Shown in pieces: positions 2,964-47,415 of a stretch of 64,000 nt of DNA (its first letter is position 1; every line of letters starts with the position of its first letter). The notes under the pieces were generated by a model. That model did not search any database. It saw nothing but the letters and a program-made list of their open reading frames with translations, and had not been told where the DNA came from. The position numbers were made by a program, and so were the translations under genes. The DNA comes from an uncultured virus (IMG/VR IMGVR_UViG_3300008624_000002) (lineage: Duplodnaviria; Heunggongvirae; Uroviricota; Caudoviricetes), in the IMG/VR virus record IMGVR_UViG_3300008624_000002; one strand, given 5' to 3'.

Positions 2964-3407
2964 CTAGAAATCTCCCTCTGCAACTTGAACTACAGTGGTG
3001 CCTCTTGCCCTCCACATATCAACGACTTTGTTTCTATCGTCAAATACAAGGTCAATTTTACCACCAAATTCTTCAAACTTGTCAGCAAGTTCTGCTTTAA
3101 ATACTTCATCAGGATCATATGAATCATTGGGCCTAAGGAAAAGTCCTTTGTGACCATCACCAATCCACTCTGAAATTTGTTGTTCAGTAACCTCTCTTTC
3201 TGATTCATTTCTTGCAGAAAAGAAAGCAACATCATCACCTTGTGCAATGTATCTTTTTGCGATATCACAAACCCACTGAACAGGCGTATCATTTACTGTC
3301 TGTTCTTTAAAAGATTTCCAATCGTTATTGTTCTCCACAAAATGTCTCCTGTGGTCGCAATCTGCGATTGTTCCATCTACATCAAAAATTACTGTTAATC
3401 TATTCAT
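2964..3407 (-). CDS. HAD-family 3'-phosphatase (PseT phosphatase-domain-like, no kinase domain)
   Basis: FDVDGT, SAR, LFLRP..D.VFK, FDDR..VVDMWR motifs. Confidence 0.8.
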   Translation of the reverse strand: MNRLTVIFDVDGTIADCDHRRHFVENNNDWKSFKEQTVNDTPVQWVCDIAKRYIAQGDDVAFFSARNESEREVTEQQISEWIGDGHKGLFLRPNDSYDPDEVFKAELADKFEEFGGKIDLVFDDRNKVVDMWRARGTTVVQVAEGDF

Positions 3408-4881: not shown

Positions 4882-4957
4882 TGGTGGAGCTGATAGGAAT
4901 CGAACCTACGACCTACTGGATGCAAACCAGTCGCTCTCCCTACTGAGCTACAGCCCC
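4882..4957 (-). tRNA. tRNA-Ala (anticodon TGC), CCA encoded
   Basis: GGGGCTG TA GCTC AGTAGGGA GAGC G ACTGG TTTGCAT CCAGT AGGTC GTAGG TTCGATT CCTAT CAGCTCC A CCA; 76 nt; G3:U70 Ala identity pair. Confidence 0.95.
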
Positions 4958-5194: not shown

Positions 5195-5865
5195 ATTGTT
5201 CTTACCGCTCTCATTCTTTCTATAGGCATGGGTTCGCCTGAAATTCTATGAAAGAACATAACTAATGTTAATCTTTCTTCTTCTTCAACTTCGAAATTGT
5301 TAGCACCATGATAACAATTCGGCATTAACAATAGTCTATTAAATTTGCCCTTAACATTTACATGTTCTTCAAATGAATCGTTAAACTCCATTTGAACTAG
5401 TGTGTCCCTCTCAGTCATATAACCTTGAAGATTACATTTCGTTTTTGTTTCAATATGAGCTGGGTCAAGTAGTGTACCTTCCTTACTAGTATAGATTGAA
5501 GTGCCATCACTATCATTTAGATAAAGTATGCCTGTTGCATAACCATTATCACTATGAATCCACCCACGATGCATCTTGGCAGGAATCCTTTGAAATGCCA
5601 TAGTGCAATCAACTAACCCTACAGCAGATGACCCATATGAAGAATACTCTCTATCACTTTGACCCAAATCAGGTAAAGCTTGAAATAAACTCATCGTTTT
5701 TGTGACAAGATTATCATAAAATATTTCATGTACTTCATGAAGTGGTCGACTTCTAGTACCAGGCCACATTCCATTTGGGTCAGGTGTAAATTCTAATCTA
5801 TTGGCCAACTCTACAAGTTGGTGTGGTTCATTTAAAAAGTCGTCAACTATTGTTATTGGTATCAT
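5191..5865 (-). CDS. 2OG-Fe(II) oxygenase-like protein
   Basis: WIHSD...GILYLN...YHG...RLT (HxD..H..R). Confidence 0.75.
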   Translation of the reverse strand: MIPITIVDDFLNEPHQLVELANRLEFTPDPNGMWPGTRSRPLHEVHEIFYDNLVTKTMSLFQALPDLGQSDREYSSYGSSAVGLVDCTMAFQRIPAKMHRGWIHSDNGYATGILYLNDSDGTSIYTSKEGTLLDPAHIETKTKCNLQGYMTERDTLVQMEFNDSFEEHVNVKGKFNRLLLMPNCYHGANNFEVEEEERLTLVMFFHRISGEPMPIERMRAVRTI

Positions 5866-7142
5866 CGACCTACATCTCCTAAATATTTTTCTTTACATTC
5901 TTCCCACGACATACTAATTATATCATCGTAGAATAATGTCTCAGTTAAATTTTGTCTATCTGATTTCATAAGATTAGTAATTCTCTTAGCGGCATATTTC
6001 TCTTTCCATAACTGAGTTAATGATTCTACTGAACCATCGTTAGAGTTTCTAACTAACTGGTCTTCTTCTATCTCACCTCTAAGAAACTCTCTAGAGTTTT
6101 CATAGAATGTAGAATAATAAATGCCTCTTTGATGGTCACTCTTCTGTAATTCTTTTGGTATCTTTAACTGTGAATACATGAACTGTCTCATACGATTTCT
6201 ATGGTCTCTCTTCAATGTCTGGCCACTCTCTCGTTTTGCAACATACAATAAAAAATATCTCTCGTTAAAATGATGTTCTGCGTAGTCAAGCATAGCTCTT
6301 TCAGTGTCTTTGGTCATTTCAAATGATAATGAACCTTTACTATAACCCATTTTCTTCCAATGTTTAAGTCTATCGTATTGTGATAAACCACCTGTCTTAG
6401 TTTTACCATACAATGATGTAGTAGTCATACCAACTAACTTATCACCATAGTTTTCTTCCCACTGTTTCTGTATCACATCGGCAGTGCATAACAATGCCAT
6501 GAGTTTACCACCTGTGTAATTAAAACCAAGTGGTTGTGTTGGGAGAATACTCGAACCTATAGCACTGTTATTCAGTTTACCAGAATTCGTTTTGTATATT
6601 CTCTCCCAACCAATGTATTCATCTCTAGGTGTTAAGTCAATGAAGTCGCCTGTGATACAAATGACACCAAGATACTTACCTGTGACTTTATCTCTAACTA
6701 TATAATGCAGATTTCTACCAATGTTAGATGAATTCTTCTGGCTGTGTGTCATTGTTCTTAAACAATTCCACCTCTCAGTAAGAGAACCAGCGGCTTGTCT
6801 ATCTTTCTCAGAATCAGTGTATATCAATTCTGGTTCTAGATTAACGAAGTCTGCATATGTATTTGGAAACCATATGTTATTCTTAGTCTCATTGATTAGT
6901 TTTAAATGGTCTTCGTTTACAAAGTTTACTTCTTCACCATACAATGTTGAGACTGTTTGTGTTGGATATTTTAAATGTATTTCCTGATACTTCTGGTATA
7001 AGGTGTATTCTGCCACACCCATTTTAGAAACAAATGATAAATCTTTGATTATCATCTCTCTGAGTTCTTCTCTAGAGATGATATCTTTCTCAGGTCTATT
7101 GGCCTGATACTCATCAAATTGTTTCTGAACAAATGGTTCCAT
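5862..7142 (-). CDS. DUF4338 / DruA-like protein (paralog 1)
   Basis: IGRNLHYIVRD..TGKYLG, PLGFNYTGGKLMALL, TTTSLYG..SQYDRL; paralog of 16491..17615. Confidence 0.65.
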   Translation of the reverse strand: MEPFVQKQFDEYQANRPEKDIISREELREMIIKDLSFVSKMGVAEYTLYQKYQEIHLKYPTQTVSTLYGEEVNFVNEDHLKLINETKNNIWFPNTYADFVNLEPELIYTDSEKDRQAAGSLTERWNCLRTMTHSQKNSSNIGRNLHYIVRDKVTGKYLGVICITGDFIDLTPRDEYIGWERIYKTNSGKLNNSAIGSSILPTQPLGFNYTGGKLMALLCTADVIQKQWEENYGDKLVGMTTTSLYGKTKTGGLSQYDRLKHWKKMGYSKGSLSFEMTKDTERAMLDYAEHHFNERYFLLYVAKRESGQTLKRDHRNRMRQFMYSQLKIPKELQKSDHQRGIYYSTFYENSREFLRGEIEEDQLVRNSNDGSVESLTQLWKEKYAAKRITNLMKSDRQNLTETLFYDDIISMSWEECKEKYLGDVGR

Positions 7143-10251: not shown

Positions 10252-10683
10252 TTATGATCCGTTTCCATTCTCCAACTCCACTGTCCCATTCTCTATCAAA
10301 ACTTTTCTGTTGGCCATATGTTGTTTTTCAACTTCTTCTTTATTACCACCTGTGTATGCGACTGCATGATGGTCATCAATCATCTGTTGATTGATAGAAT
10401 AAGAAGAAGAACCATGATATAAATTACCTAAGATTCTTCCAAACTTTCCTCTGTCATGAGAAACCATTTGGATATCTCCTTCTTCTAAGATTTTTGCGAG
10501 ATGAGCTTTAGAAGCTTTACCAAATTTCTTTTCTACTAAATCACGAGTTCTAGATTCAGGTGTATCAATACCCAACATCCTAACTCTTTGTTTTTTGTAA
10601 ACCATTCCGAAACCAAGGTCTACATCAACATCAACTGTGTCTCCGTCCACGACTCTTACGACATTTACTTTATATCTATACAT
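10252..10683 (-). CDS. Thermonuclease (SNase-like)
   Basis: RVVDGDTVD, RMLGIDTPE, GKFGRILG. Confidence 0.9.
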   Translation of the reverse strand: MYRYKVNVVRVVDGDTVDVDVDLGFGMVYKKQRVRMLGIDTPESRTRDLVEKKFGKASKAHLAKILEEGDIQMVSHDRGKFGRILGNLYHGSSSYSINQQMIDDHHAVAYTGGNKEEVEKQHMANRKVLIENGTVELENGNGS

Positions 10684-11095
10684 AATTGTGTTGTCTATGT
10701 TCTTTTTTATTTTCCCAATCTGTTATTGCCTGTCTTATAGAATCTTCTGCAAGAACTGAACAATGCAATTTGATTGGTGGCAATTCAAGTGCTTTTGCTA
10801 TATCTTTATCTTTGACTTGTTTTGCCTCTTCAATTGTTTTACCTTTCAGCATATCAACAAACAATGTAGATGATGCGATTGCACTTCCACATCCATATGT
10901 TTTAAATTTAACATCAACGATTCTTTCTTTATCGTTAAGTTTAATTTGTAATCTCATTACATCTCCACATGCAGGTGCACCTGTCATGCCTGTAGCAACA
11001 TTAGGGTCATTAGGATCAAAACTGCCCACCGAGTGTTTATGCGGATCATTTAGAACAGATTCAAATCTGTCTATGACCTTCTTACTATATGCCAT
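10676..11095 (-). CDS. iscU: Fe-S cluster scaffold IscU
   Basis: GAPACGDVM, KTYGCGSAIASS, LPPIKLHCSVLAED: three conserved Cys and LPPVK-like chaperone motif. Confidence 0.93.
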   Translation of the reverse strand: MAYSKKVIDRFESVLNDPHKHSVGSFDPNDPNVATGMTGAPACGDVMRLQIKLNDKERIVDVKFKTYGCGSAIASSTLFVDMLKGKTIEEAKQVKDKDIAKALELPPIKLHCSVLAEDSIRQAITDWENKKEHRQHNYV

Positions 11096-16087: not shown

Positions 16088-16494
16088 GATTGGGTTACCC
16101 TCCTTCTTAAACCACTACTTGAAAATGAATGTTTTCTATTGGTATAGTAAACTTTTATAGGCAAGTAATCTCCTGTAAAAGTTTTGTCTTTATAATCTTC
16201 ACCTATAAATCTTACATCGATTGGTGTTGATTCTAGTAAATCTATCAGACTCGCTTCTGTATCATATGGTATAACTTCATCGACATATTGTATCGCATTA
16301 AGTTGTACGAATCTTTCGTATACAGACTGTACTGGTTTATTCTTTTCTTGCCTATCAATAGTTGGGTCAGTCTGCAACCCTACAATTAAATGTTCACAAT
16401 TCTCTCTCGCTTCTTTTAACATTACTACATGTCCTGCATGTAATAAGTCAAATGCGCCACAAGTAAATCCTTTTTTCTTTGTCATATATCTCAC
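16084..16494 (-). CDS. TagD/RfaE-like cytidylyltransferase
   Basis: GAFDLLHAGH, LIVGLQTD, YVDEV, RKHSFSSS. Confidence 0.88.
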   Translation of the reverse strand: MRYMTKKKGFTCGAFDLLHAGHVVMLKEARENCEHLIVGLQTDPTIDRQEKNKPVQSVYERFVQLNAIQYVDEVIPYDTEASLIDLLESTPIDVRFIGEDYKDKTFTGDYLPIKVYYTNRKHSFSSSGLRRRVTQS

Positions 16495-17615
16495 CTAATA
16501 ATATCTATATTACTATTCTTAGACCAAACCTCTAGTTCAGTTCTAAGTCTGTTATCATTTTTTAATTTCTCGTATCTTCTACCTGCGTGTTTCTTCCACC
16601 ATGTAATGATACTATCGTATTCAAATCTATCAAAGTTGATATTCTTTTCTAATGTATCAGTTTCTAAATTCAAATACTCTTTTACATTCTTGAAACCATA
16701 TGTTCCAAGATATTGTCTCTTCTGTTCTGTAAGATTCTTTGCATCAACGAAACATTGTTTGAATGGTTTTAACATTTCGCTATGATGTTTATCTAATGAA
16801 TTTCTTATAATAGAAATCATCTTGCCTTGCGTTTTAAGTTTTCTACTCGATGCATCATCATGAACAAGTGGCACTCCATTATTCTTATTTTCAAACCATT
16901 CTTTTAGATGTGCATACTTATCATCATTGATTGACGGAACAAAATCTGAATCAGTTAGTCCTATAAATCTTAAGAATGGTTTCATGCCATCATACATCGA
17001 TGATGATTTAGATGTGCCATATAATGATGTAGTTTCAAACATACAGAACTCTGTATTATATTTCTTGTTTAATGTTTCTCTTGCAAGATGTGAATTACAA
17101 ATGCCTGCAAGTAGTTTACCACCTAGATAATTGAAACCAAATGGTTGTGTTGGTATGATATTAAACCCCATGATTGCTGAGTCATTAAATCTTCTCATTA
17201 CATCTTTGTCTAATGTGTTTAAAGGTTTGCCTAGAAATTCATTACGAGGTTTAGAGTTGATAGTAGGAGAACCAAAACGAATGAACCCTACAATCTTATT
17301 AGTATTAGTTTCATATACAACCCACTTAAGAGTTTTGCCTGGTATCGATTTCTGAATCATTTGAGATGCAACTATATCAATGTAATCATCGTATAAAGAA
17401 ACCTCTCTACAGTCGAACTCCATGTCTTCTGGATGAATCGTAAAGTCTTGAAACATATCGTCCTCTGGACCCATACCAAATAATGATGCAGGTCTATCTG
17501 ACATTTTTTCTAGTTTTACTTTGCGTAGATAATCATCTATTCTATCAAAATTAGCATAGTAGTCGATAAAGATTTGACCGACATATTGTGCATCTTGTTT
17601 TGATAGTATCAACAT
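16491..17615 (-). CDS. DUF4338 / DruA-like protein (paralog 2)
   Basis: IPGKTLKWVVYE, PFGFNYLGGKLLAGIC, ETTSLYG..SSMYD. Confidence 0.65.
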   Translation of the reverse strand: MLILSKQDAQYVGQIFIDYYANFDRIDDYLRKVKLEKMSDRPASLFGMGPEDDMFQDFTIHPEDMEFDCREVSLYDDYIDIVASQMIQKSIPGKTLKWVVYETNTNKIVGFIRFGSPTINSKPRNEFLGKPLNTLDKDVMRRFNDSAIMGFNIIPTQPFGFNYLGGKLLAGICNSHLARETLNKKYNTEFCMFETTSLYGTSKSSSMYDGMKPFLRFIGLTDSDFVPSINDDKYAHLKEWFENKNNGVPLVHDDASSRKLKTQGKMISIIRNSLDKHHSEMLKPFKQCFVDAKNLTEQKRQYLGTYGFKNVKEYLNLETDTLEKNINFDRFEYDSIITWWKKHAGRRYEKLKNDNRLRTELEVWSKNSNIDIIR

Positions 17616-17674
17616 AAAAAACCCACCTCCATTATAAACGAAGATGGGTATAATTGTCTAGTGACTTTTTGTAA

Positions 17675-18199
17675 TTATGCTACGAATTCATCGCCAGGAT
17701 TCCATGCACAACCTGTAAGACCACCAGCTTTTAATGCTTGTAATGTTCTTAATATTTCTTGTGCGTTTCTACCTGTATCTAATGCGTTGACTGAAACACT
17801 TTGAATTGTTCCATTAGGGTCAACAATGAATGTTGCTCTATAACAAACACCGTTGTCAATATCAACGATTCCTAATTCAGAAGATAAATATAGTCCAGTG
17901 TCAGCTGCAAGTTCATGATTGATTTCTCTAATCATTCCATTTACATTTCTCCAGGCCTGTTTGCAGAATTCATTATCACCACTGATACCAATTACTCTCG
18001 CCTCATCGACAAGTATGTCCATAGCGGCAATTTCTGTTGGGCATATGAATGTGAAATCTTTTGGATAAAAGTAAATGACACTCCAACCAACATGTTCCTC
18101 TAAACTTACCTCTGTTATATCGTTTGCAGGATTAACTCCTTGTAAATTAAAAGTAGGAAATTCATCACCTACAGTTAATTGTTCTCCTTCTCTAAACAT
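17675..18199 (-). CDS. ahpC: Peroxiredoxin (AhpC/TSA)
   Basis: YFYPKDFTFICPTEI, RATFIVDP.G, GRNAQE.LR; true start MFREGE at 18199 with GAGGAG RBS. Confidence 0.92.
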   Translation of the reverse strand: MFREGEQLTVGDEFPTFNLQGVNPANDITEVSLEEHVGWSVIYFYPKDFTFICPTEIAAMDILVDEARVIGISGDNEFCKQAWRNVNGMIREINHELAADTGLYLSSELGIVDIDNGVCYRATFIVDPNGTIQSVSVNALDTGRNAQEILRTLQALKAGGLTGCAWNPGDEFVA

Positions 18200-18220
18200 T
18201 TTTTCTCCTCTGTTTGAAAC

Positions 18221-18292
18221 TGGAGCGGAGTGAAAGTTTCGATACTTCATCTCTCAACTGGTAGTCGAGTGTGTTCTTTACACTAACTCCGC
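18221..18292 (-). tRNA. Non-canonical tRNA-Gly-like RNA (anticodon ACC), CCA encoded
   Basis: GCGGAGT TA GTGT AAAGA ACAC A CTCGA CTACCAG TTGAG AGAT GAAGT ATCGAAA CTTTC ACTCCGC T CCA; perfect acceptor stem and U73, but no D-loop GG and no GTTC. Confidence 0.75.
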
Positions 18293-18302
18293 TTAGTATT
18301 CC

Positions 18303-18341
18303 ATCCTACTAAATCTAGTAGTATTTTACAAGGGGTTTTTT
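18303..18341 (-). promoter_or_regulatory. Class II promoter for the tRNA-Gly-like RNA and ahpC
   Basis: AAAAAACCCC-TTGTAA-N18-TAGGAT; predicted start a few nt before the tRNA 5' end. Confidence 0.6.
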
Positions 18342-18345
18342 GAAA

Positions 18346-18768
18346 TTATTTAATTTTAATTTCGACTGGTTTATCTTCTTCTGGAATAATCCTTTCTAAA
18401 GATACACTCAATATACCATCTTTCATATCTGCACCCTTGACTTCAATATCGTCTGCAAGTGTAAATCGTCTATTGAAAGTTCTGCCTGATAAACCTCTGT
18501 GAACATACTCAGTATCTTCACTTAGATTTTCTTTTGAACCCTCAATCAAAAGAGTTTCTTTTTCTTTTGTAATGGATATATCCTTCTTACCGAACCCAGC
18601 AACAGCAAGTTCAATACTGAAATTTTCAGCATCAATCTTTACAATATTGTAAGGTGGGTAGTTTGAAGTGTCGTGCAAATGTTCAGCACGGTTTAATAGT
18701 TGAAAAGTTCTGTCGAACCCTATTGCGAATGGGAATGATTTCCCGAAGACATCGTCATAGATTGTCAT
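18346..18768 (-). CDS. Small heat shock protein Hsp20 (IbpA-like)
   Basis: NYPPYNI, IELAVAGF, HRGLSGRTFNRRFTLA, DGILSV; start MTIYDD with AGGAGG RBS. Confidence 0.93.
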   Translation of the reverse strand: MTIYDDVFGKSFPFAIGFDRTFQLLNRAEHLHDTSNYPPYNIVKIDAENFSIELAVAGFGKKDISITKEKETLLIEGSKENLSEDTEYVHRGLSGRTFNRRFTLADDIEVKGADMKDGILSVSLERIIPEEDKPVEIKIK

Positions 18769-19592: not shown

Positions 19593-21482
19593 TTATTTAT
19601 TGAGTTTACGAACCTCTTTTCTTCCTCTGCCATCATCAAAGACAGGTGCAAATATTTTAACTGGTATGTCTTTACCCTTAACTTTAATCTCATCTATTTG
19701 TTGACATGCAATATTGTCCAATTGCATATAAGTATATTCGGATAAAAGAATTGGTGTATCAAAAGTTCTTGTTTGAACTTCTAATCTTGCGCCAAGATTA
19801 ACTGCATCTCCAACTACTGAGTAATCAAATCTCAATTCACTTCCCATATTTCCTACAATACATGGGCCTGTATTAATTCCTGTACCTATTACTACTGGTG
19901 GTAAATCCATACCCTCATCTTTAATTTCTTGATTCATTTTCTCAGTGAGTAGTTCTATTTCTATTGCAGTCTTCACAGCCATCTCTGCATGATTAGGACA
20001 ATCTAACGGAGCATTCCAAAATGCCATTAAACAATCCCCCATATACTTATCTACTGTTCCACCATTCTCAATTACCACCTTTGTCATACCATCTAAGAAT
20101 CTATTGATAAGTAATACTAGTCCCTCTGGATCATCATTCTTCATATAAGCTTCTGATATGGGAGTGAATCCAACTATGTCTGCAAATAAGAAAGACATTT
20201 CTTTTCTATCACCACCAAGTCTAAGTTTACTTGGGTCTTTCTGGAGTTCTTCAATCATATCAGGAGATAAATATTTCTGGAACTGCTTCTTAATTTGTTC
20301 TTTGAGTTGGTAGGTCGTATAGTATTGGTTGAAAGAGGCATGCCCGAAAACAACTATGGAGGAAATCGATGACCAGAAAATATCGAAGAGAACGAGAGAT
20401 GAAGACCATAAGTAGAAACCCCCACCCACCTGAACTAACACGATACTGGAACTCACTATCGCCGAGTAGACTGTGGGAAGTTTGTAAACCGATGCCAATA
20501 TTCCTAGAAGGACTATCAAAAGAAGAACGACTTCTAAAAATTCAAGAAAGTCGGATTGTTGTATTTGAACTCCTGTCGAGACGGTTTGGATTAGGTTCGC
20601 TTGAACTTCGTGGGGATACATTGTACCCACTGGAGTTGAAATTGGATTAGCTAATCCTTCAGCAGTAAGACCATAAACTAGAATCTTATTCTCTATATCC
20701 GATTCTTTTAGGTCTGAGAATGAAATGGAATCAAACTGATTCCAATAAGAAATCATTAAGTCACCGCTTGATGTGGTCTCGATTGGCGAATCTCTTCCCA
20801 TTTTTACCCAAACTATACCCTCTTCTTTAGTAACCCTAGTCTGATAATTAGGTTGGTCATAGAAAGCTCTGAGTGTTTCAAAGCCCAAACTCGGATAGAG
20901 CTGGCCATTGGCCTGGATGACAAGCGGAGCGCTCCTGATGGTACCATCAAAGTTAGGGGTTTTCGCCACACTAGGTGTAGCGACTGTGACTCCCATACCC
21001 CAAGCCGAACTTTGTAATCCGGGAATGGGACTCACCAAACCTGGAAAGTTCCATACATGGTCTTGTATATCACCATCTCCAAATACAGATGTATTTACGA
21101 ATGGTGCGTTGCCTGATTCTTTTTGAACTGTTGGTGCAGATGATAATATGGTTAATCTATTCTCTAATGCGTTTGCAAAGACTTCGTCTCCACCAAATCT
21201 ATCTTCTTCTGAGAATAGAATATTGAATACATGAGTGTTTGTGTGGTGAGTTTCCCATAGAGTATCAGCATATATCTCTCTAGGGAATGGGTATTGACCT
21301 AGGGCGTCTATCGACTTTTCATCTATATTTACTAGAAGAATGTCTTCTACTTGAACTTTTTCTTTTGATGAATGTAGAACATCGAAGTAAGACCATCTAA
21401 CATTATCTATTAAATAAGGCGACCATATCTTTACACCCACCAATGCAACGATAGTGAGTAATACCGTTTTCCAATTATACAT
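19593..21482 (-). CDS. CHASE2-domain class III adenylate cyclase (membrane receptor cyclase)
   Basis: N-terminal TM; VNIDEKSI..LGQYPFPR and NILFSEEDR (CHASE2); 3 TMs; FADIVGFT, DKYMGD, DYSVVGDAVNLGARLE; likely start MYNWK at 21482. Confidence 0.92.
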   Translation of the reverse strand: MYNWKTVLLTIVALVGVKIWSPYLIDNVRWSYFDVLHSSKEKVQVEDILLVNIDEKSIDALGQYPFPREIYADTLWETHHTNTHVFNILFSEEDRFGGDEVFANALENRLTILSSAPTVQKESGNAPFVNTSVFGDGDIQDHVWNFPGLVSPIPGLQSSAWGMGVTVATPSVAKTPNFDGTIRSAPLVIQANGQLYPSLGFETLRAFYDQPNYQTRVTKEEGIVWVKMGRDSPIETTSSGDLMISYWNQFDSISFSDLKESDIENKILVYGLTAEGLANPISTPVGTMYPHEVQANLIQTVSTGVQIQQSDFLEFLEVVLLLIVLLGILASVYKLPTVYSAIVSSSIVLVQVGGGFYLWSSSLVLFDIFWSSISSIVVFGHASFNQYYTTYQLKEQIKKQFQKYLSPDMIEELQKDPSKLRLGGDRKEMSFLFADIVGFTPISEAYMKNDDPEGLVLLINRFLDGMTKVVIENGGTVDKYMGDCLMAFWNAPLDCPNHAEMAVKTAIEIELLTEKMNQEIKDEGMDLPPVVIGTGINTGPCIVGNMGSELRFDYSVVGDAVNLGARLEVQTRTFDTPILLSEYTYMQLDNIACQQIDEIKVKGKDIPVKIFAPVFDDGRGRKEVRKLNK

Positions 21483-21646
21483 TACTGGATCCAGCAAACA
21501 GGATATACACACCAGTAAGGATTAGCAAATCCTAATAACCATAGTATGAGAATCCATAATGGGATTTTTACCCATGTTCTGCCTTTAGACCACTCTCTGA
21601 ATCGTATGGCGTATGGTGCCATTTTATTAAACAACCAGTCTTGCAT
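21482..21646 (-). CDS. Small Trp-rich membrane protein (54 aa)
   Basis: Manual translation MQDWLFNKMAPYAIRFREWSKGRTWVKIPLWILILWLLGFANPYWCVYPVCWIQ; TAATG-coupled on both sides. Confidence 0.55.
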   Translation of the reverse strand: MQDWLFNKMAPYAIRFREWSKGRTWVKIPLWILILWLLGFANPYWCVYPVCWIQ

Positions 21647-22032: not shown

Positions 22033-22863
22033 TTAGTTTCCTTGCGAAACCGTGACAGAACAACCGCCAGAAGTTTGGCAGTTTTGTGTAAGTGTATAAT
22101 TTTGTGTTGTGTTGCCTCGTTGTTCGAAATCGAGAGTAGTTCCAAATGTTCCATTTAATGTTATGGTTGCATTGTGTTCGCCATGGCCATCTTGAAGATA
22201 ATCAACAGTATTGTCATCATTCTGAACTGTTAAATAAAATTCTTTTGCACCATCGCCCTTTTGTTTGCCAAAGATTGAGTTATCATCTCCATATAAATAT
22301 ATTCTTGCTGAGTGTCCATCACAATTACCTTGTGAACAATTTCGTTGTTGCCCAACTATTTCGTTATCATCTCCATGTATATCTACGGTAACATAATGAC
22401 CGCCACCCTCTGTATTATCAATTGCCCAACTAGTGTCGGTTCTACTTGAGATTTCATATCCTTGAGCCCACCATAACTTATTATTTGTTCCATAACTAAT
22501 ATGAAACTGAATATCATTCTTGTTGCAATCTGAATTTTTAGTACAGTTCTGCCAGAGTTTAACAGTTTGGTTATCATAGTCAATATCACCACCCCAAGAT
22601 GCGCCAGAACCCCAACTTGGAGAATCATTGGCCCAACCTATTTCGTTGTTAGAACCAACTTGTTTCATTTCAATCACAACATCATCTCCATCACCTACAG
22701 AAAAGAATATATCGTTGTTGAATCCTTCTTGAATGATATCGATTTCTAAGTTGTCTCCACCTGCTACTTGATTAATGTTGATAGTATTATCATCAGATGC
22801 TATAACTGATAAGGAAAACAATGTTCCTATTGCAAATGTTTTTATTTTATTTAAAAAATCCAT
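22033..22863 (-). CDS. Secreted curlin-like beta-repeat protein
   Basis: Signal peptide; repeated x-I-x-Q-x-G-x-x-N units (QEGFNN, QVGSNN, HGDDN, QDGHGEHN); paired Cys. Confidence 0.7.
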   Translation of the reverse strand: MDFLNKIKTFAIGTLFSLSVIASDDNTININQVAGGDNLEIDIIQEGFNNDIFFSVGDGDDVVIEMKQVGSNNEIGWANDSPSWGSGASWGGDIDYDNQTVKLWQNCTKNSDCNKNDIQFHISYGTNNKLWWAQGYEISSRTDTSWAIDNTEGGGHYVTVDIHGDDNEIVGQQRNCSQGNCDGHSARIYLYGDDNSIFGKQKGDGAKEFYLTVQNDDNTVDYLQDGHGEHNATITLNGTFGTTLDFEQRGNTTQNYTLTQNCQTSGGCSVTVSQGN

Positions 22864-22868
22864 ATTAA

Positions 22869-24026
22869 TTAACCTTGTTGAATAATAACTATTTCTATTC
22901 CATCTCCATCACCAAATGTTATAACACCTTGATAACCTTCTACTTCGGTCTCTAGAGTTCCGGAACCTCCTGCGGCTATTATTATATTTATGTGTCCATT
23001 CACATCTCTAAAGAATACTAAGTCGCCATCTTGTTCAAAGATATTATACTGCGATTCTTTATTGAACCCAGCAGATGCACCTCTAAGTTTGAAACCTGCT
23101 ATATCTGCGGCCTGTCTATCATCAACCAATACAACTCTAGTCTTTTCTAAAGCTTCAACAACATCTAATAAATCTTGTAAGAAGTCTACATCTAGATAAT
23201 CAATATCTAATTCGGAGAAATCTCCTTCCATAGTGTCATCTAATGCATTTGCTTCTAGTTCATTAAACTCTAAGAAGTCGATGTCTAATACACCTTGGTC
23301 TGAGTTCTGCTCATCTGAATATGATTCTTCCATCGCCTGTCTTATCGCAGGTGGTGGATTCACAATAAACATATTGTCAATCATACTAGGTGTTATGCCT
23401 TGAACAACAACTGATTTAGTTGGTGCGGCCTCAAAAGATGCGACTGTTGTGGCCGCATACGCTTGATTTAAAATCGTTTCACCGCCATCATTCCATACTA
23501 AAATCTCTCCTGATGTTTCACCTGTTGTTTCATCAGGCAAAAGAATGACCATTGTCCTACCCAACTCATCTATGGTTGTGGTGAAATCGGTCCCTCTCAT
23601 CGTAATGTTCGCCGTTGGTGTGGCGACATTAACATTTTGTTTTTTAATTCTATTACCAGCACCCGAGGCAAATCTTGATGTGCCTCTTACCATTCTAATC
23701 GACATCTTTGATAGACTTGGGTCTGGATCGTAATACGCCTCGTCAATATAAACAAGACTGTTTTCTGTTAATGAGAGTTGTTCTGCATCGAGGAACTCTA
23801 TTAACATTCTGCCATTGGCAGTTTCCGCTTCATCATATAAAACTATGTCTGTTCCGACATCAGTTTCAAGCCGACTGTCACCTCTTTTTACGGAAGTGAC
23901 ACCTTTGTTTTCTACAATATCACCAATGGGTTCAGCATAAGCGAACCCACCGTATGATAAAAAAAGACTTAAACTAACTGTCGTTAGCAGCGTCTTTCTG
24001 ATTAATTTGAATGATTGCATTTTCAC
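22869..24026 (-). CDS. Secreted FecR-domain protein
   Basis: Signal peptide; ETANGRMLIEFLDAEQLSLTENS and VATPTANITMRGTDF FecR motifs; acidic linker. Confidence 0.8.
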   Translation of the reverse strand: MKMQSFKLIRKTLLTTVSLSLFLSYGGFAYAEPIGDIVENKGVTSVKRGDSRLETDVGTDIVLYDEAETANGRMLIEFLDAEQLSLTENSLVYIDEAYYDPDPSLSKMSIRMVRGTSRFASGAGNRIKKQNVNVATPTANITMRGTDFTTTIDELGRTMVILLPDETTGETSGEILVWNDGGETILNQAYAATTVASFEAAPTKSVVVQGITPSMIDNMFIVNPPPAIRQAMEESYSDEQNSDQGVLDIDFLEFNELEANALDDTMEGDFSELDIDYLDVDFLQDLLDVVEALEKTRVVLVDDRQAADIAGFKLRGASAGFNKESQYNIFEQDGDLVFFRDVNGHINIIIAAGGSGTLETEVEGYQGVITFGDGDGIEIVIIQQG

Positions 24027-24720
24027 TATCCGCCGTTAAGGTTATATGGGCGTCTGGTGATGAGCAAGAATTGCCTGCACCCGAAACACATGTTCCACTT
24101 AATTGATTGATATCAATATCAGCACTTGAACCAGTTAAAGTTAGGTTCAATGTTTGTTCTCCATCTTTTTGTAGAGTGTTAATGTTATTGGATCCACCTG
24201 TGACTGTAAAGTTCCAGGTAGCGTCATCTGACTCCCAATCAACATCGAATACATTACTGTTTCCTACTAAGACTAAATCTGCGTTCAATCTCTCTGCACT
24301 TAAAGAATATCCTTGGTCTAAATCGAATGTATTTGAATCACCATCAACATTAAAGTTAATATCTGAATCATCAGCAGAACCTGAGGCCCCTATGTTCCAA
24401 TCAACTGAGTTTGAATTTCCTGAAAGTAGCAAAGTTATATCAGTGCTATCTGTGATAAAAGGTCCGAATAACAAGTTCTGATTACCAATCATATCGATGT
24501 TTAAATCTAGAGTGTGACCAGTCATTGTCATAGCAGTACCAGAACCACTTGAATAATTATTTTGACCTATTTTGTTACCAAAACCGATTTGGTCAATATA
24601 TAATTTCAAGGTGTCTCCAGTTTGTGCAATCATAACCTCATTATCATCTGTAGCAGCAGCGAAAACGAATGATGTCGACATTCCAAAAAGTAATGCTATA
24701 CTTAATAAAAATTTATTCAT
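23974..24720 (-). CDS. Secreted curlin-like beta-repeat protein
   Basis: Signal peptide; ~23-aa repeats ending G-x-x-N (QIGFGN, MIGNQN, SGNSN, DGDSN, VGNSN, TGGSN). Confidence 0.7.
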   Translation of the reverse strand: MNKFLLSIALLFGMSTSFVFAAATDDNEVMIAQTGDTLKLYIDQIGFGNKIGQNNYSSGSGTAMTMTGHTLDLNIDMIGNQNLLFGPFITDSTDITLLLSGNSNSVDWNIGASGSADDSDINFNVDGDSNTFDLDQGYSLSAERLNADLVLVGNSNVFDVDWESDDATWNFTVTGGSNNINTLQKDGEQTLNLTLTGSSADIDINQLSGTCVSGAGNSCSSPDAHITLTADSENAIIQINQKDAANDS

Positions 24721-25600
24721 TTTCTTCTCCTATTATCCAAAAGCCTCTATCGTGCCCTTGGTAAATTAATTCCAACACGGCAGCCTCGATAGCTGTTCGT
24801 GTTGCGTATGTCACTGACTCATTATTACCCACGCCGTCCTCGAACTCGACAAGTTGTGTTCCTTCTTCAAAGAATCGGAATACATCTCCCCCAGCACCAT
24901 AAGAAAGGATAGTCTTTCTTGTTTGGACATTCAATAATATTTCTCCTGTGAGAACACTAACAGCTCTCATAGAAATTGTCACAGCATCTTGACGATACTG
25001 TTTGGCCATTCCAACACCTAGAGTTCTTGCGCCTCGACCTCCGGTTAGTAAATTGGAATCATAACCAATTATCCCACCTTCTATAATTATGCCTGCGAAT
25101 AGCATAGGTTGAATTCCTTGTGCTTCTGTCCCATTGGCAGTAGCAAAATCTTGTCTGGCAGAACGAATAATCTGCCTCTCTCTTACTAAGTTGTCTATAC
25201 CACCCCTTTCGACAACTCTAAACCACTTACCACCAGCGGCGGTTTTAAGTGCATCTATAACCATTGCTTCAGCGCCTTGTGTGACTGCTGTAGAGAATGA
25301 TGCAATGTTACCTTCTGATTTTCTTTGACCTGTTCTATCAATGAAATTATATACTGCAACCACTGGCATTTCTTTTGCAGGTGGTATGTTTAACAGTTCT
25401 ATGTATGATGGAAGTCTTATTACTTCCGGCGTATCAACACAAATATATTTTCTGGACATTATTTTATTAACACCTGTCCAAACATCTTTGCCAAACCCCT
25501 CCTGATAATCACAATCTTTAGGGTCCATACTCCACTGTGGTATTGATGCACAACCTGACATAAGAATCAATAAAGAACTTAAAAGAAAATTTCGAAACAT
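24713..25600 (-). CDS. csgG: Curli secretion channel CsgG
   Basis: Lipobox LMSGC; VAVYNFIDRTGQRK, FSTAVTQGA, WFRVVER, IIEGGIIGYD, TGEILLNVQTRKTILS. Confidence 0.92.
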   Translation of the reverse strand: MFRNFLLSSLLILMSGCASIPQWSMDPKDCDYQEGFGKDVWTGVNKIMSRKYICVDTPEVIRLPSYIELLNIPPAKEMPVVAVYNFIDRTGQRKSEGNIASFSTAVTQGAEAMVIDALKTAAGGKWFRVVERGGIDNLVRERQIIRSARQDFATANGTEAQGIQPMLFAGIIIEGGIIGYDSNLLTGGRGARTLGVGMAKQYRQDAVTISMRAVSVLTGEILLNVQTRKTILSYGAGGDVFRFFEEGTQLVEFEDGVGNNESVTYATRTAIEAAVLELIYQGHDRGFWIIGEENE

Positions 25601-26127
25601 TAACTGTCTCCAGGCACTGGCACAGGATCAGGGTCCTGACTAAAGTTTCCTGAACCTATTGGTATCTCTAATATTGTTTCTGTACCATCTTCTGATACAA
25701 TAGTCATTCTAATAAATTCTGAGCCGTCTGCGTTAGTGATTACTTCGTATGTGACTGTACTACCTTCTAATACAAATGAACCAAAACGAGTTGCAGTATC
25801 GTTTGAGAACATTGATTCAACCAATTGTTTGGCCATTTGAGCATAGATACGGCTCTCTAAGTTTCTAATAAATTTTGCAAGGGTTGTATTGTCTTCTGCC
25901 CTTTCAGCAGCTTTACGAGCTGATTCTAATGCATCTTCTATCTCCGTCTTACGAGTGAACTCTTGGTTCTCTACTGTGAGATAATGAGATGCGGTTCCCT
26001 TTCCACTGAAAGATGGATTTTTAAATTCGTGTGTTATTGGTGATGCGTAAACATTGTTTGCGTGTAGAAACAATACAAATAATATTGAAAATACGAAACT
26101 AGCTATCTTTATCTTTTGTGTCTTCAT
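25600..26127 (-). CDS. csgF: Curli assembly component CsgF-like
   Basis: Signal peptide then HEFKNPSFSG (cf. CsgF FQFRNPNFGG); FIRNLESRIYAQ; adjacent to csgG. Confidence 0.75.
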   Translation of the reverse strand: MKTQKIKIASFVFSILFVLFLHANNVYASPITHEFKNPSFSGKGTASHYLTVENQEFTRKTEIEDALESARKAAERAEDNTTLAKFIRNLESRIYAQMAKQLVESMFSNDTATRFGSFVLEGSTVTYEVITNADGSEFIRMTIVSEDGTETILEIPIGSGNFSQDPDPVPVPGDS

Positions 26128-27119: not shown

Positions 27120-27192
27120 AATATACTCCTATTTCAATTATGAAACTCCATATTAACACTGGAGTTTAAAATTGACAAGGGGTTTTTTGGGA

Positions 27193-47400: not shown

Positions 47401-47408
47401 TATTTATA
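47401..47408 (-). promoter_or_regulatory. T4-type late promoter upstream of uvsY
   Basis: Exact TATAAATA. Confidence 0.65.
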
Positions 47409-47415
47409 AGGGGTT

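What the first reader, a model, noticed from the sequence alone, without database searches (positions are those of the whole stretch)
18221..18292. tRNA-Gly-like RNA with ACC anticodon that looks built for charging but not translation
Seen: all bacterial GlyRS identity elements are kept (G1-C72, C2-G71, G3-C70, U73, C35, C36), the acceptor, D and anticodon stems are intact, CCA is encoded, and a promoter predicts a start ~4 nt upstream. However, the D-loop is only AAAGA (no G18G19), the T-loop is ATCGAAA (no TTC), 53:61 is mismatched and 51:63 is A-U. Established: A34 tRNA-Gly is essentially absent from bacteria, and loss of the D/T-loop consensus with A51-U63 characterises staphylococcal non-proteinogenic tRNA-Gly that escape EF-Tu. 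Inference: a glycyl donor for non-ribosomal chemistry, or a decoy for anticodon nucleases. The selective pattern of conservation argues against random decay. The ORF track hides it by over-extending the peroxiredoxin.
Basis: partly seen in the sequence, partly recalled or inferred. Interest (0 to 1): 0.75.

Follow-up and report, generated by a model that had tools for sequence, protein, structure and literature searches.

The report
Phage glycine tRNA with "forbidden" ACC anticodon
This is a real, conserved glycine tRNA gene of an uncultured ocean phage that carries the anticodon ACC, which reviews list as missing from all cellular life, and it most likely serves ordinary protein synthesis.

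Summary
Window 18292..18221 (minus strand) encodes a 72-nt cloverleaf with anticodon ACC, encoded CCA, a 5-nt D-loop, T-loop AUCGAAA and a U53·C61 mismatch. ARAGORN and Rfam's filtered scan miss it; an unfiltered Rfam scan scores it 41.4 bits (cut-off 29).

It is not an oddity of one genome. It belongs to a covarying tRNA-Gly family of marine T4-like phages related to pelagimyophages. Position 34 in that family is U, A or, rarely, C. One pattern scan of viral contigs gave 41 distinct ACC sequences in 90 stretches. Some have fully canonical D- and T-loops and sit beside tRNA-Asp, tRNA-Glu or tRNA-Ala. Pelagibacter phage HTVC008M carries an unannotated ACC copy. Stem changes are compensatory, and the exact window sequence persists in diverged flanks, so it is not a pseudogene.

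The most likely function is translation of GGN codons; GGU makes up 54% of the window's glycine codons. Published work on an engineered E. coli tRNA-Gly(ACC) suggests undiscriminating reading by unmodified A34.

The non-ribosomal donor idea is not supported but not excluded. No Fem-type enzyme was found, yet a GNAT-fold DruA-like gene is often adjacent. Expression, charging and the state of A34 are untested.

The parts
18221..18292 (-). tRNA-Gly gene with anticodon ACC, 72 nt including the encoded CCA. It has a 5-nt D-loop (AAAGA), T-loop AUCGAAA and a U53.C61 mismatch.
   Evidence: Sequence. Rfam RF00005 scores 41.4 bits. The family model R1 scores 76.3 bits. The predicted fold has the four arms of a cloverleaf. 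Family covariation supports the structure.
18260..18262 (-). Anticodon ACC (A34 C35 C36) in the 7-nt loop CUACCAG.
   Evidence: The Rfam alignment places it in the anticodon loop. ARAGORN calls 'acc' in relatives such as L010 and L016.
18303..18331 (-). Promoter-like element: TTGTAA, a 17-nt spacer, then TAGGAT, ending 10 nt before the tRNA 5' end.
   Evidence: Read from the sequence. Both boxes are conserved in position in syntenic relatives. The consensus scan did not call it. The -35 context AACCCCTTGNAA recurs 6 times in the window against 1.05 expected.
17675..18199 (-). AhpC/TSA peroxiredoxin gene. Its start lies 22 nt after the tRNA's CCA and has a GAGGAG ribosome-binding site. The longer ORF reaching 18250 is an over-extension into the tRNA.
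   Evidence: Pfam PF00578, E 9.8e-25. ORF list. Homologues match residues 1-174.
17621..17649 (-). Terminator-like hairpin (13 pairs, then a T run) after the peroxiredoxin gene. It may close a tRNA-peroxiredoxin transcription unit.
   Evidence: Terminator scan. That it ends a shared transcript is inference.
18346..18768 (-). Hsp20 gene upstream of the tRNA.
   Evidence: Pfam PF00011, E 2.6e-18. It is syntenic in 18 of 19 relatives that carry the tRNA.
16491..17615 (-). DruA-like protein (374 aa) with a GNAT-like core, two genes downstream of the tRNA. A homologue lies directly beside tRNA-Gly in several relatives.
   Evidence: Pfam PF14236 and PHROG 19197. The AlphaFold model has pLDDT 66.8. 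Its fold matches are weak but uniformly GNAT; the best is Mu Mom at Z 7.1. Adjacency is shown.

Best explanation
The locus is a functional phage-encoded tRNA-Gly gene.

Proposed steps:
- It is transcribed from its own sigma-70-like promoter with a leader of a few nucleotides, possibly together with the peroxiredoxin gene downstream.
- It is trimmed to a 72-nt tRNA that already ends in CCA.
- The host GlyRS charges it through the retained identity set (G1-C72, C2-G71, G3-C70, U73, C35, C36).
- It is used on the ribosome to read glycine codons during infection.

Decoding: A34 pairs by Watson-Crick with GGU, the phage's commonest glycine codon. If A34 stays unmodified it probably reads all four GGN codons with little discrimination, as reported for an engineered E. 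coli tRNA-Gly(ACC). One small gene would then cover the whole glycine box.

Elbow: the short D-loop and altered T-loop are a lineage-wide remodelling of the tRNA elbow that changes in a coordinated way. They are not decay.

Shown here: the gene, its structure, its conservation and covariation, its spread among phages, and the codon match. Inferred: transcription start, processing, charging, EF-Tu use, the modification state of A34 and its decoding range.
For: Real tRNA:
- Rfam scores it 41.4 bits against a 29-bit cut-off. The predicted fold has the four arms of a cloverleaf, z -3.36.

Family under structural selection:
- In 26 relatives, 96.7% of pair cells are paired and 12 of 21 pairs show changes on both sides. 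The covariation score is 0.562 against 0.134 in shuffles (0 of 500 reach it) and at most 0.105 when partners are slid.
- In the 41 ACC-only sequences, 96.3% of cells are paired. Covariation is 0.734 against 0.181 (0 of 500) and at most 0.122 when slid.

The window's own subtype:
- It has 4 distinct sequences (window, L016, L502, L367). By my reading, all keep A54 and U53.C61, and every stem difference preserves pairing: 51:63 A-U to U-A, 29:41 C-G to G-U, and 30:40 and 52:62 G-U to A-U.
- The exact 72-nt sequence occurs in 5 flank contexts. In the three diverged ones the upstream 100 nt are 91-94% identical and the downstream 100 nt about 53-89% identical, yet the tRNA has 0 changes.

ACC is not tied to a degenerate body:
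- Of the 41 ACC sequences, 12 have TTC T-loops, and 10 of those have GG in the D-loop.
- ACC genes lie beside tRNA-Asp(GUC) and tRNA-Glu(UUC) in L394, and beside tRNA-Ala(UGC) in L342.
- The ACC tRNA L335 is 80% identical to T4 tRNA-Gly; one such record labels it UCC.

The elbow changes are coordinated:
- 28 of 29 non-TTC T-loops lack GG in the D-loop, and C56 is kept in 38 of 41.

Codon match:
- In 67 window ORFs, GGT accounts for 636 of 1174 glycine codons (54%). The window's other tRNA, Ala(UGC), matches GCA at 55%.

Recurrent U/A switching:
- A34 occurs in 18 sequence clusters at 85% identity, 3 of them mixed with U34. The closest A/U pairs differ at only 5 other positions.

Literature:
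- An E. coli tRNA-Gly1 changed from UCC to ACC, with unmodified A34, lost discrimination among glycine codons. The review argues A34 would suit fully degenerate boxes read by a single tRNA (PMC6103715 passages).
- HTVC008M's only detectable tRNA is Gly(ACC).
Against: - No expression data. The RNA-library contigs that were laid do not cover the tRNA, so transcription, processing and charging are unshown.
- The window's form is the most deviant in its family. It has A54, an unpaired 53:61 and a 5-nt D-loop, and ARAGORN rejects it. Any of these could impair binding to EF-Tu, the ribosome or RNase P.
- The wobble base does not track codon use. Flanks of A34 loci have GGT at 50% (78 loci, 1774 glycine codons). 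Flanks of U34 loci have GGT at 54% (31 loci, 968 codons). This is opposite to a simple codon-matching prediction (Mann-Whitney p 0.04).
- The host and its tRNA-Gly set are unknown. The best bacterial peroxiredoxin match is only 60% identical, to a Gammaproteobacteria MAG.
- In this phage the elbow remodelling affects tRNA-Gly but not tRNA-Ala, which scores 70.9 bits and is canonical. Translation alone does not explain that.
- A GNAT-fold gene is often directly adjacent, which keeps a non-ribosomal or tRNA-directed role open.
Confidence: 0.62

Rival explanations
1. It translates as above, but A34 is deaminated to inosine by the host's TadA. The working anticodon would then be ICC, reading GGU, GGC and GGA (94% of the window's glycine codons) and leaving GGG to host tRNAs.
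For: According to the reviews read, A34 in tRNA transcripts is almost always converted to inosine (PMC6103715; PMC8007984). The loop keeps U33, A34 and C35. GGT, GGC and GGA together make 1102 of 1174 glycine codons.
Against: Bacterial TadA is described as limited to tRNA-Arg(ACG) (PMC4928997 passages), and position 36 here is C, not G. The eukaryotic enzyme deaminates tRNA-Gly(ACC) poorly because of its anticodon loop (same passages). No cytidine/adenosine deaminase family (PF00383) was found in G001 or in the complete HTVC008M genome. The laid RNA contigs do not cover the site, so no A-to-G signal could be read.
Confidence: 0.12
2. It is a defence-proof replacement tRNA. The host (or the phage itself) inactivates cellular tRNA-Gly or Gly-tRNA during infection, for example with an anticodon nuclease or a GNAT toxin. 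The phage copy, with its changed wobble base and elbow, escapes recognition and keeps glycine decoding going. It still translates.
For: In this phage the remodelling is specific to tRNA-Gly; tRNA-Ala is canonical. Position 34 and the elbow vary fast while the cloverleaf is kept. The window also holds a PNKP-type phosphatase domain at 2964-3407. T4 uses such an enzyme in tRNA repair; that link is recalled, not tested. HTVC008M carries this tRNA and no other.
Against: No nuclease or toxin aimed at tRNA-Gly has been identified in any candidate host, and the host is unknown. Nothing here tests resistance to cleavage. U34 and A34 versions share the same loop context, for example CU-NCC-AG, so the loop is not systematically recoded.
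Confidence: 0.12
3. The tRNA is charged with glycine but kept away from EF-Tu and the ribosome, and donates glycine to a non-ribosomal acceptor. The candidate enzyme is the neighbouring DruA-like GNAT-fold protein; all known Fem-type, L/F- and aminoacyl-lipid transferases are, by my recollection, GNAT-fold enzymes.
For: - Elbow features resemble the S. aureus non-proteinogenic tRNA-Gly, which lack G18 and G19 and bind EF-Tu weakly (PMC4574755 passages).
- A DruA-like gene lies on the same strand next to tRNA-Gly in three different arrangements. Spacers are as short as 1-16 nt, and 18 of 64 distinct tRNA-Gly sequences with usable flanks have it within the flank.
- The DruA-like model matches only GNAT folds: Mu Mom Z 7.1 and FemA Z 5.8.
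- In five relatives that were read, a radical-SAM gene follows the tRNA within about 10 nt.
Against: - ACC and remodelled elbows also occur without a DruA-like gene in the flank (46 of 64 sequences).
- In HTVC008M the two genes are 8 kb apart.
- The paralogous DruA-like gene has a downstream slot that holds Ala, Thr, Arg or Ser tRNAs in relatives. That pattern looks like an insertion hotspot, not a glycine-specific partnership.
- No FemAB (PF02388) or Acetyltransf_6 (PF13480) match in G001 or HTVC008M.
- The fold matches are weak (best Foldseek E 6e-3, all Z under 8) and cannot separate acetyl-CoA users from aminoacyl-tRNA users.
- The window tRNA keeps U55 and C56, unlike the staphylococcal species. 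Canonical-bodied ACC tRNAs sit in ordinary tRNA clusters.
Confidence: 0.1
4. It is a decaying tRNA pseudogene, or only a tRNA-shaped processing signal that lets RNase P cut the 5' end of the peroxiredoxin mRNA, with no adaptor function.
For: ARAGORN and Rfam's filtered scan miss it. It has an unpaired 53:61 and a minimal D-loop. It lies 22 nt before the peroxiredoxin start codon.
Against: - The sequence is identical across diverged flanks.
- All stem differences within the subtype preserve pairing.
- The anticodon, U33, A37, the GlyRS identity set and CCA are all kept. A mere cleavage signal would need none of them.
- The same tRNA occurs without a peroxiredoxin gene downstream, in L162, L396 and L507.
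Confidence: 0.03

Closest known systems
T4-type phage tRNA-Gly (annotated UCC in one T2L record) and other phage-encoded tRNAs
   Same: It is a small tRNA gene in a T4-like myovirus with encoded CCA, the same acceptor start (GCGG...) and discriminator U73. A canonical-bodied ACC family member (L335) is 80% identical over its full length to T4 tRNA-Gly. The window tRNA joins the same family through model R1 at 76.3 bits.
   Different: The wobble base is A, not U. The D-loop is 5 nt without GG, the T-loop starts with A54, and 53:61 is unpaired. ARAGORN does not call it.
Engineered E. coli tRNA-Gly1 with a UCC-to-ACC change (Boren et al. 1993, as described in PMC6103715) and Mycoplasma mycoides four-way tRNA-Gly(UCC)
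   Same: Both are glycine tRNAs whose unmodified wobble base (A34, or U34 with C32) reads all four GGN codons with little discrimination (passages). The window tRNA has A34 and C32.
   Different: Those are a laboratory mutant and a cellular U34 tRNA. This is a natural A34 gene family. Its modification state and decoding range are untested. Most ACC relatives have U32, not C32 (25 of 41 have the loop UUACCAA).
Staphylococcus aureus non-proteinogenic tRNA-Gly (NP1, NP2, NEW)
   Same: These are glycine tRNAs with GlyRS identity kept and the G18G19 elbow pair lost. They are proposed to escape EF-Tu and feed Fem transferases (PMC4574755 passages).
   Different: Those carry UCC and also lack U55 and C56. 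The window tRNA has ACC and keeps U55, C56 and one D-loop G. No Fem-family gene was found in G001 or HTVC008M. The nearest cultured relatives of this phage infect Pelagibacter and Methylophilales; pentaglycine cross-bridges are, as far as I recall, not described for such hosts.
Bacterial tRNA-Arg(ACG), the TadA substrate
   Same: It is the only widespread bacterial tRNA with a genomically encoded A34 (PMC8007984 and PMC4928997 passages).
   Different: It has a different amino-acid identity and G36 where this tRNA has C36. Deamination of this tRNA is untested, and no phage deaminase was found.
Unannotated tRNA-Gly(ACC) of Pelagibacter phage HTVC008M (NC_020484.1, 91140-91213)
   Same: It has the same anticodon, encoded CCA, a GG-less D-loop and a non-TTC T-loop (AGCGUUA). 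It scores 49.5 bits with Rfam and 71.1 bits with R1. It is in a cultured phage.
   Different: Its acceptor stem (GCGGGUG) and its context differ: it lies between the CobS and ribosomal protein S21 genes. It has no tRNA feature in the RefSeq record. A survey that used tRNAscan-SE lists 0 tRNAs for this phage (PMC7029224 Table 1).

Membership tests
tRNA (Rfam RF00005) | Cloverleaf of four helices scoring above the family's gathering threshold | tested here: met
   41.4 bits against a 29-bit cut-off, model positions 1-71. The predicted fold has the four arms. In relatives, 96-97% of pair cells are paired with compensatory changes.
tRNA (Rfam RF00005) | Seven-nt anticodon loop with U33 and a purine at 37 | tested here: met
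   The loop is CUACCAG. Of the 41 ACC relatives, 39 have a 7-nt loop by the model alignment.
tRNA (Rfam RF00005) | Canonical elbow nucleotides G18, G19, U54, U55 and C56, with a G53-C61 pair | tested here: not met
   The D-loop AAAGA has one G. Position 54 is A and 53:61 is U.C; U55 and C56 are kept. This lowers the claim that it is a canonical tRNA, not the claim that it works as one. The change is family-wide and coordinated.
Bacterial tRNA-Gly (GlyRS substrate) | Identity set G1-C72, C2-G71, G3-C70, U73, C35, C36 (the set itself is recalled from the literature) | tested here: met
   All six are present in the sequence. In relatives the first four pairs and U73 were fixed by my search patterns, so their constancy there is not independent evidence.
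Bacterial tRNA-Gly (GlyRS substrate) | Actual glycylation by the host GlyRS | not testable with these tools
   This needs an in vitro charging assay or acid-gel analysis. The literature shows that ACC does not block charging by human GlyRS (PMC4928997 passages).
Staphylococcal-type non-proteinogenic tRNA-Gly | Loss of G18G19 together with U55 and C56 | tested here: not met
   GG is lost but U55, C56 and one D-loop G remain. C56 is kept in 38 of 41 ACC relatives. The reference features come from PMC4574755 passages.
Staphylococcal-type non-proteinogenic tRNA-Gly | Weak binding to EF-Tu | not testable with these tools
   T-stem pairs 49:65, 50:64 and 51:63 are G-C, A-U and A-U here and vary widely in the family. 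No affinity can be computed from them.
Staphylococcal-type non-proteinogenic tRNA-Gly | A partner aminoacyl-tRNA transferase of the Fem type in the same system | tested here: inconclusive
   No PF02388 or PF13480 match in G001 (about 32% complete) or in the complete HTVC008M genome, and none among the 53 window ORFs scanned with Pfam. A neighbouring DruA-like protein has a weak GNAT-like fold of unknown substrate. Host enzymes could not be examined.
A34-to-I34 tRNAs (TadA substrates) | A34 in a loop like that of tRNA-Arg(ACG), plus a deaminase | tested here: inconclusive
   A34, U33 and C35 are present but position 36 is C. No PF00383 gene in G001 or HTVC008M. Host TadA was not examined, and no RNA reads cover the site.

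The most novel reading that the evidence does not exclude
Marine T4-like phages maintain a natural lineage of glycine tRNAs with the 'universally missing' ACC anticodon and a rebuilt elbow, and this lineage is functionally coupled to the DruA-like GNAT-fold enzyme (and, in some relatives, a radical-SAM enzyme) encoded within a few nucleotides of it. Either the enzyme uses Gly-tRNA as a glycyl donor for a non-ribosomal product, or it modifies the phage tRNA itself. On this reading the odd tRNA is one half of a new tRNA-dependent phage pathway and not only a decoder.
Probability: 0.1. Interest if true: 0.9.

Novelty: new variant of a known kind. Interest (0 to 1): 0.72.

Why it matters
Reviews of tRNA gene content state that tRNA-Gly(ACC) is missing from all organisms. 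They also say that phage tRNAs lack the same 'prohibited' species, and they treat the gap as a puzzle (PMC8007984 passages; PMC4928997 passages).

This finding is a natural counter-example. One pattern scan of viral contigs gave 41 distinct ACC sequences, all showing the marks of purifying selection. A cultured phage-host pair, HTVC008M on Pelagibacter ubique HTCC1062, carries one.

That makes several open questions directly testable:
- What does a natural A34 in the glycine box read?
- Is it deaminated to inosine?
- Why do cells avoid it?

It also shows that standard tRNA finders under-count tRNAs in abundant ocean phages. HTVC008M is listed with 0 tRNAs, and ARAGORN missed 10 of the 41 ACC sequences. 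The same phage lineage has remodelled the D-loop/T-loop elbow in a coordinated way.

My literature searches found no paper that notes a phage tRNA-Gly(ACC). They cover only the open-access library. The original HTVC008M paper and the supplements of the phage tRNA survey (PMC6409571) were not seen.

Tried and rejected
- RNA evidence. Twenty-three coded runs were listed, all held as contigs. Four were laid. Contigs covered parts of the peroxiredoxin and Hsp20 genes and the intergenic region down to 18289, but not the tRNA. This says nothing about expression or A-to-I editing.
- Cultured-phage searches. DNA searches with the locus and with the tRNA alone found no real match. The peroxiredoxin has no cultured-phage homologue above 43% identity.
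- Codon-use test. I asked whether A34 and U34 track GGU use in the flanks. They do not, and the small difference runs the other way. Simple codon matching therefore does not explain the switch.
- Host identification through the peroxiredoxin. The best hit is 60% identical, to a Gammaproteobacteria MAG, and there was no SAR11 hit. The host tRNA-Gly set could not be examined.
- Phage-encoded deaminase and Fem-type transferases: none found in G001 or HTVC008M.
- DruA-like protein. No sequence match to solved structures. The atlas returned only its own family. Two literature look-ups gave nothing on its fold. The structure model is of middling confidence. FemA appears only at rank 35 (Z 5.8) among generic GNATs, so Fem-like membership is undecided.
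- General anticodon census in viral contigs.
- The survey paper on phage tRNAs (PMC6409571). Its main text has no statement on Gly-ACC, and its supplements were not read.
- The alternative T-arm register from the energy fold. I rejected it because L016 does not support it.
Full report
**1. What is at the coordinates**

On the minus strand, 18292..18221 reads GCGGAGU-UA-GUGU-AAAGA-ACAC-A-CUCGA-CUACCAG-UUGAG-AGAU-GAAGU-AUCGAAA-CUUUC-ACUCCGC-U-CCA.
- a perfect 7-bp acceptor stem with G1-C72, C2-G71 and G3-C70, then U73 and an encoded CCA;
- intact D and anticodon stems;
- anticodon ACC in a 7-nt loop with U33 and A37;
- a 5-nt D-loop with a single G;
- T-loop AUCGAAA, 53:61 U.C and 51:63 A-U.

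One correction is needed. The T-loop differs from consensus only at position 54. U55, C56, G57 and A58 are kept.

ARAGORN finds only a tRNA-Ala(UGC) at 4882-4957 in the window. Rfam at gathering threshold over 64 kb finds the same single tRNA. With lax filters on 18100-18450, RF00005 matches 18224-18292 end to end at 41.4 bits, E 1.3e-7, above its 29-bit cut-off.

The energy fold has the four arms of a cloverleaf at -22.5 kcal/mol, z -3.36. Its anticodon stem is over-extended by C32-G38 and U33-A37 pairs. Its T stem is shifted by one base, a register that the relative L016 does not support by my reading.

The long ORF 17675..18250 runs into the tRNA. The real peroxiredoxin start is the ATG at 18199, behind a GAGGAG ribosome-binding site. 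That start is the one matched by homologues.

**2. Context**

The window is part of a marine T4-like myovirus. It encodes DNA polymerase, UvsX, a DnaB-like helicase, clamp and clamp loader, and major head, portal, sheath and terminase proteins. It also carries curli genes, an ammonium transporter and RegA.

- Its major head protein is 64-67% identical to those of Methylophilales phage Melnitz and Pelagibacter phages HTVC008M and Mosig.
- The nearest held record is a 58.5-kb viral contig, G001, estimated at 32% complete. It contains the same tRNA.
- Gene order on the minus strand is Hsp20, promoter-like element, tRNA, peroxiredoxin, strong terminator-like hairpin, DruA-like protein, cytidylyltransferase.
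- The element TTGTAA-17 nt-TAGGAT ends 10 nt before G1. The consensus scan does not list it. Both boxes are conserved in position in relatives, some with TATAAT.

**3. It is one member of a large, covarying phage tRNA-Gly family**

Loci encoding relatives of the peroxiredoxin carry a tRNA-Gly at the same place. ARAGORN calls it TCC in L008, L017, L019-21 and L024-26, and ACC in L010-L016.

A pattern scan of viral contigs with the conserved acceptor and D-stem motif gave 113 stretches and 50 distinct sequences.

On 26 of them the cloverleaf is paired in 96.7% of cells:
- 12 of 21 pairs show changes on both sides;
- the covariation score is 0.562 against 0.134 in shuffles (0 of 500 reach it);
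- it is at most 0.105 when partners are slid.

Acceptor pairs 1-4 were fixed by my pattern and say nothing. The anticodon and T stems carry the signal.

In the sub-lineage with loop CU-NCC-AG, position 34 is:
- U in L017, L019 and L159;
- A in the window, L016, L087, L093, L104, L121 and L172;
- C in L156.

No G occurs at that position in this sub-lineage.

**4. ACC is widespread and old enough to have diversified**

A scan specific for U33-A34-C35-C36-A37 in this tRNA-Gly frame gave 90 stretches in viral contigs. I read 88 loci holding 41 distinct sequences. ARAGORN of the 41 tRNA-Gly(acc) and misses 10, including the window's.

On these 41 sequences 96.3% of pair cells are paired. Covariation is 0.734 against 0.181 (0 of 500 shuffles) and at most 0.122 when slid. 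The count of pairs with a change on both sides (13) does not exceed shuffles (260 of 500).

I pooled all family sequences with a well-formed anticodon arm: 146 of 163, comprising 94 U34, 39 A34, 11 G34 and 2 C34. In this pool, A34 falls in 18 clusters at 85% identity, and three of them also hold U34 siblings. The closest A/U pairs differ at only 5 other positions: L087 against L008, and L354 against L256. The wobble base has therefore switched repeatedly, and ACC lineages persist.

HTVC008M has exactly one detectable tRNA, a tRNA-Gly(ACC) at 91140-91213 between the CobS and S21 genes.
- The RefSeq record does not annotate it.
- A pelagimyophage survey using tRNAscan-SE lists 0 tRNAs for this phage (PMC7029224, Table 1 passage).
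- Melnitz and Mosig have other tRNAs but no tRNA-Gly.

**5. The window's own subtype is conserved, not decaying**

Four distinct sequences share its peculiar T arm: the window, L016, L502 and L367/L504. By my reading of the sequences, all four keep A54 and U53.C61.

- Their stem differences all preserve pairing: 51:63 A-U to U-A, 52:62 G-U to A-U, 29:41 C-G to G-U, and 30:40 G-U to A-U.
- The remaining differences lie in loops or at position 9.
- The exact 72-nt window sequence occurs in five flank contexts. In the three diverged ones the upstream 100 nt are 91-94% identical and the downstream 100 nt 57/107, 77/105 and 90/101 identical. The tRNA has no change.
- In L009 the peroxiredoxin is only 73% identical in protein while the tRNA is identical.

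**6. The elbow is remodelled in a coordinated way**

Among the 41 ACC sequences:
- 12 have a TTC T-loop, and 10 of those have GG in the D-loop;
- of the 29 with other T-loops (TGC 12, GGC 7, ATC 3, AGC 3, TTT 2, TGA 1, TCC 1), 28 lack GG;
- C56 is kept in 38 of 41.

The same non-TTC loops occur in U34 relatives. The short D-loop and odd T-loop are therefore a lineage trait of these phage tRNA-Gly genes and are independent of the ACC anticodon.

The window's tRNA-Ala is canonical (70.9 bits; GG and TTCGATT). In this phage the remodelling is thus specific to tRNA-Gly. I cannot explain that.

**7. What it most likely does**

I favour translation, for these reasons:
- Canonical-bodied ACC tRNAs exist, for example L335, L344 and L373.
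- L394 has tRNA-Asp(GUC), tRNA-Glu(UUC) and tRNA-Gly(ACC) in a row. L342 has tRNA-Gly(ACC) next to tRNA-Ala(UGC).
- L335 is 80% identical to T4 tRNA-Gly.
- In 67 window ORFs (18,460 codons), glycine is GGT 636, GGC 166, GGA 300 and GGG 72. ACC is therefore the exact match to the commonest codon, just as the window's tRNA-Ala(UGC) matches GCA at 55%.

Published work, of which I read passages only, reports the following:
- An E. coli tRNA-Gly1 changed from UCC to ACC, with unmodified A34, lost discrimination among glycine codons.
- A34 would suit fully degenerate boxes read by a single tRNA.
- C32 makes UCC undiscriminating (PMC6103715).
- tRNA-Gly(ACC) is charged by human GlyRS, and a mutated E. 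coli tRNA-Gly(ACC) works in elongation (PMC4928997).

The window tRNA has both A34 and C32. A single gene that covers all GGN codons fits a phage such as HTVC008M that carries only this tRNA.

Evidence against a simple codon-supply story: flanking genes of A34 loci use GGT at 50% (78 loci). Those of U34 loci use it at 54% (31 loci). The wobble base does not follow codon use. This fits functional near-equivalence of U34 and A34 better than adaptation to GGU.

**8. Rivals**

*Inosine.* No deaminase gene was found in G001 or HTVC008M. Bacterial TadA is described as restricted to tRNA-Arg. This reading is open but not favoured.

*Defence evasion.* This is attractive because only tRNA-Gly is remodelled and because the window carries a PNKP-type phosphatase domain. 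Nothing here tests it.

*Pseudogene or mere processing signal.* Section 5 contradicts this. So does the occurrence of the same tRNA without a peroxiredoxin gene downstream.

*Non-ribosomal donor.* I found no FemAB or Fem-like GNAT family, and none among the 53 window ORFs scanned with Pfam. A lead did appear, however.
- A DruA-like gene (PF14236, PHROG 19197) is on the same strand next to tRNA-Gly in three arrangements:
  - tRNA, peroxiredoxin, DruA-like (the window and 18 further loci);
  - tRNA followed directly by DruA-like, 11-16 nt later in L371, L415 and L418, or 74 nt later in L162, L396 and L507;
  - DruA-like stop codon, 6-10 nt, tRNA, 8-10 nt, then a radical-SAM gene (PF04055, E 2.4e-14 in L121), read in L096, L121, L374, L380 and L367.
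- Of 64 distinct tRNA-Gly sequences with at least 300 nt on both sides, 18 have a DruA-like gene in the flank and 46 do not.
- A model of the 374-aa protein (27-sequence alignment, pLDDT 66.8, pTM 0.59) matches only GNAT folds, all weakly: best Foldseek E 6e-3, VIA Z 7.1 to phage Mu Mom, about 6.5 to SpeG and 5.8 to FemA.

Against a glycine-specific partnership:
- The paralogous DruA-like gene (5862-7142) is followed in close relatives by a slot holding Ala(UGC), Thr(UGU), Arg(UCU) or Ser(UGA) tRNAs.
- 34 of the 42 loci scanned with ARAGORN have no tRNA there.
- 75 loci scanned with the Gly-family model gave no Gly-family hit.
- In HTVC008M the DruA-like gene is 8 kb from the tRNA.

This pattern looks more like tRNA genes landing in a plastic region beside a conserved gene than like a dedicated pair. 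I keep it as the boldest reading, at about 0.1.

**9. Comparison with what is known, and novelty**

Reviews state that tRNA-Gly(ACC) is among eight universally missing tRNA genes. They also state that phage tRNAs lack the same 'prohibited' species, and they call the absence of A34 in the glycine box a mystery (PMC8007984 passages; PMC4928997 passages).

My searches of the open-access library found no paper noting a phage tRNA-Gly(ACC). The terms covered tRNA-Gly-ACC spellings, phage with A34, pelagimyophage with tRNA, and HTVC008M with tRNA and Gly. The original HTVC008M paper was not looked for, and no supplements were read.

The kind (a phage-encoded tRNA) is known. The variant is new: a natural, selected A34 glycine tRNA with a rebuilt elbow that standard finders partly miss.

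**10. Verdict**

| Question | Verdict |
|---|---|
| Observation | confirmed |
| Best explanation | a translating phage tRNA-Gly(ACC), probably a broad GGN reader; confidence 0.62 |
| Real, selected tRNA gene | about 0.95 |
| Interest | 0.72 |

Noticed in passing
NC_020484.1 (HTVC008M) 91140-91213; locus L203 1501-1574: The cultured Pelagibacter phage HTVC008M carries a tRNA-Gly(ACC) between the CobS and ribosomal protein S21 genes. It has no tRNA feature in the RefSeq record, and a published survey lists this phage with 0 tRNAs.
   Followed up: yes
window 5862-7142 and 16491-17615 (minus strand); tRNAs at 4882-4957 and 18221-18292: Two DruA-like (PF14236) paralogues with a weak GNAT-like fold each lie within about 1 kb of one of the window's two tRNA genes. 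In relatives, the slot after the 426-aa paralogue holds Ala, Thr, Arg or Ser tRNAs.
   Followed up: partly
L096, L121, L374, L380, L367 (around the tRNA): In these relatives tRNA-Gly is squeezed between the stop codon of a DruA-like gene (6-10 nt before) and the start of a radical-SAM gene (8-10 nt after), with no room for its own promoter. The radical-SAM gene is absent from the window.
   Followed up: partly
L122, L138, L148, L171, L142/L386, L085, L197: Some family members have anticodon loops of 6 nt (UUCCAA) or 8 or more nt (UUAACCAA, CAUACCAG), by both ARAGORN and the model alignment. These are possible odd decoders or decaying copies.
   Followed up: no
window 19593-21512 (minus strand): A phage-encoded 639-aa protein with a CHASE2 sensor domain and an adenylate/guanylate cyclase catalytic domain.
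   Followed up: no
window 22033-26127 (minus strand): A curli-type secretion module (curlin repeat protein, FecR-like protein, CsgG, CsgF), as described for Melnitz and HTVC008M.
   Followed up: no
window 38779-39954, 10676-11095, 2964-3407, 662-1867 (minus strand): An ammonium transporter, a NifU-like scaffold, a PNKP-type HAD phosphatase domain and a DUF6267 protein. The phosphatase might belong to an RNA-repair set, but no ligase was identified, and DUF6267 has no sequence match to solved structures.
   Followed up: partly
window 18326-18337, 27173-27184, 47404-47415, 53243-53254 (minus strand) and two plus-strand sites: The motif AACCCCTTGNAA (the -35 context of the tRNA promoter-like element) occurs 6 times with up to 1 mismatch, against 1.05 expected. 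It may be a shared early-promoter context.
   Followed up: partly
window 18256-18264 (anticodon loop): C32 and G38 could form a Watson-Crick pair, and the energy fold closes the loop to a 3-nt ACC triloop. The loop CUACCAG occurs in 8 of the 41 ACC sequences. Whether this affects decoding is unknown.
   Followed up: no
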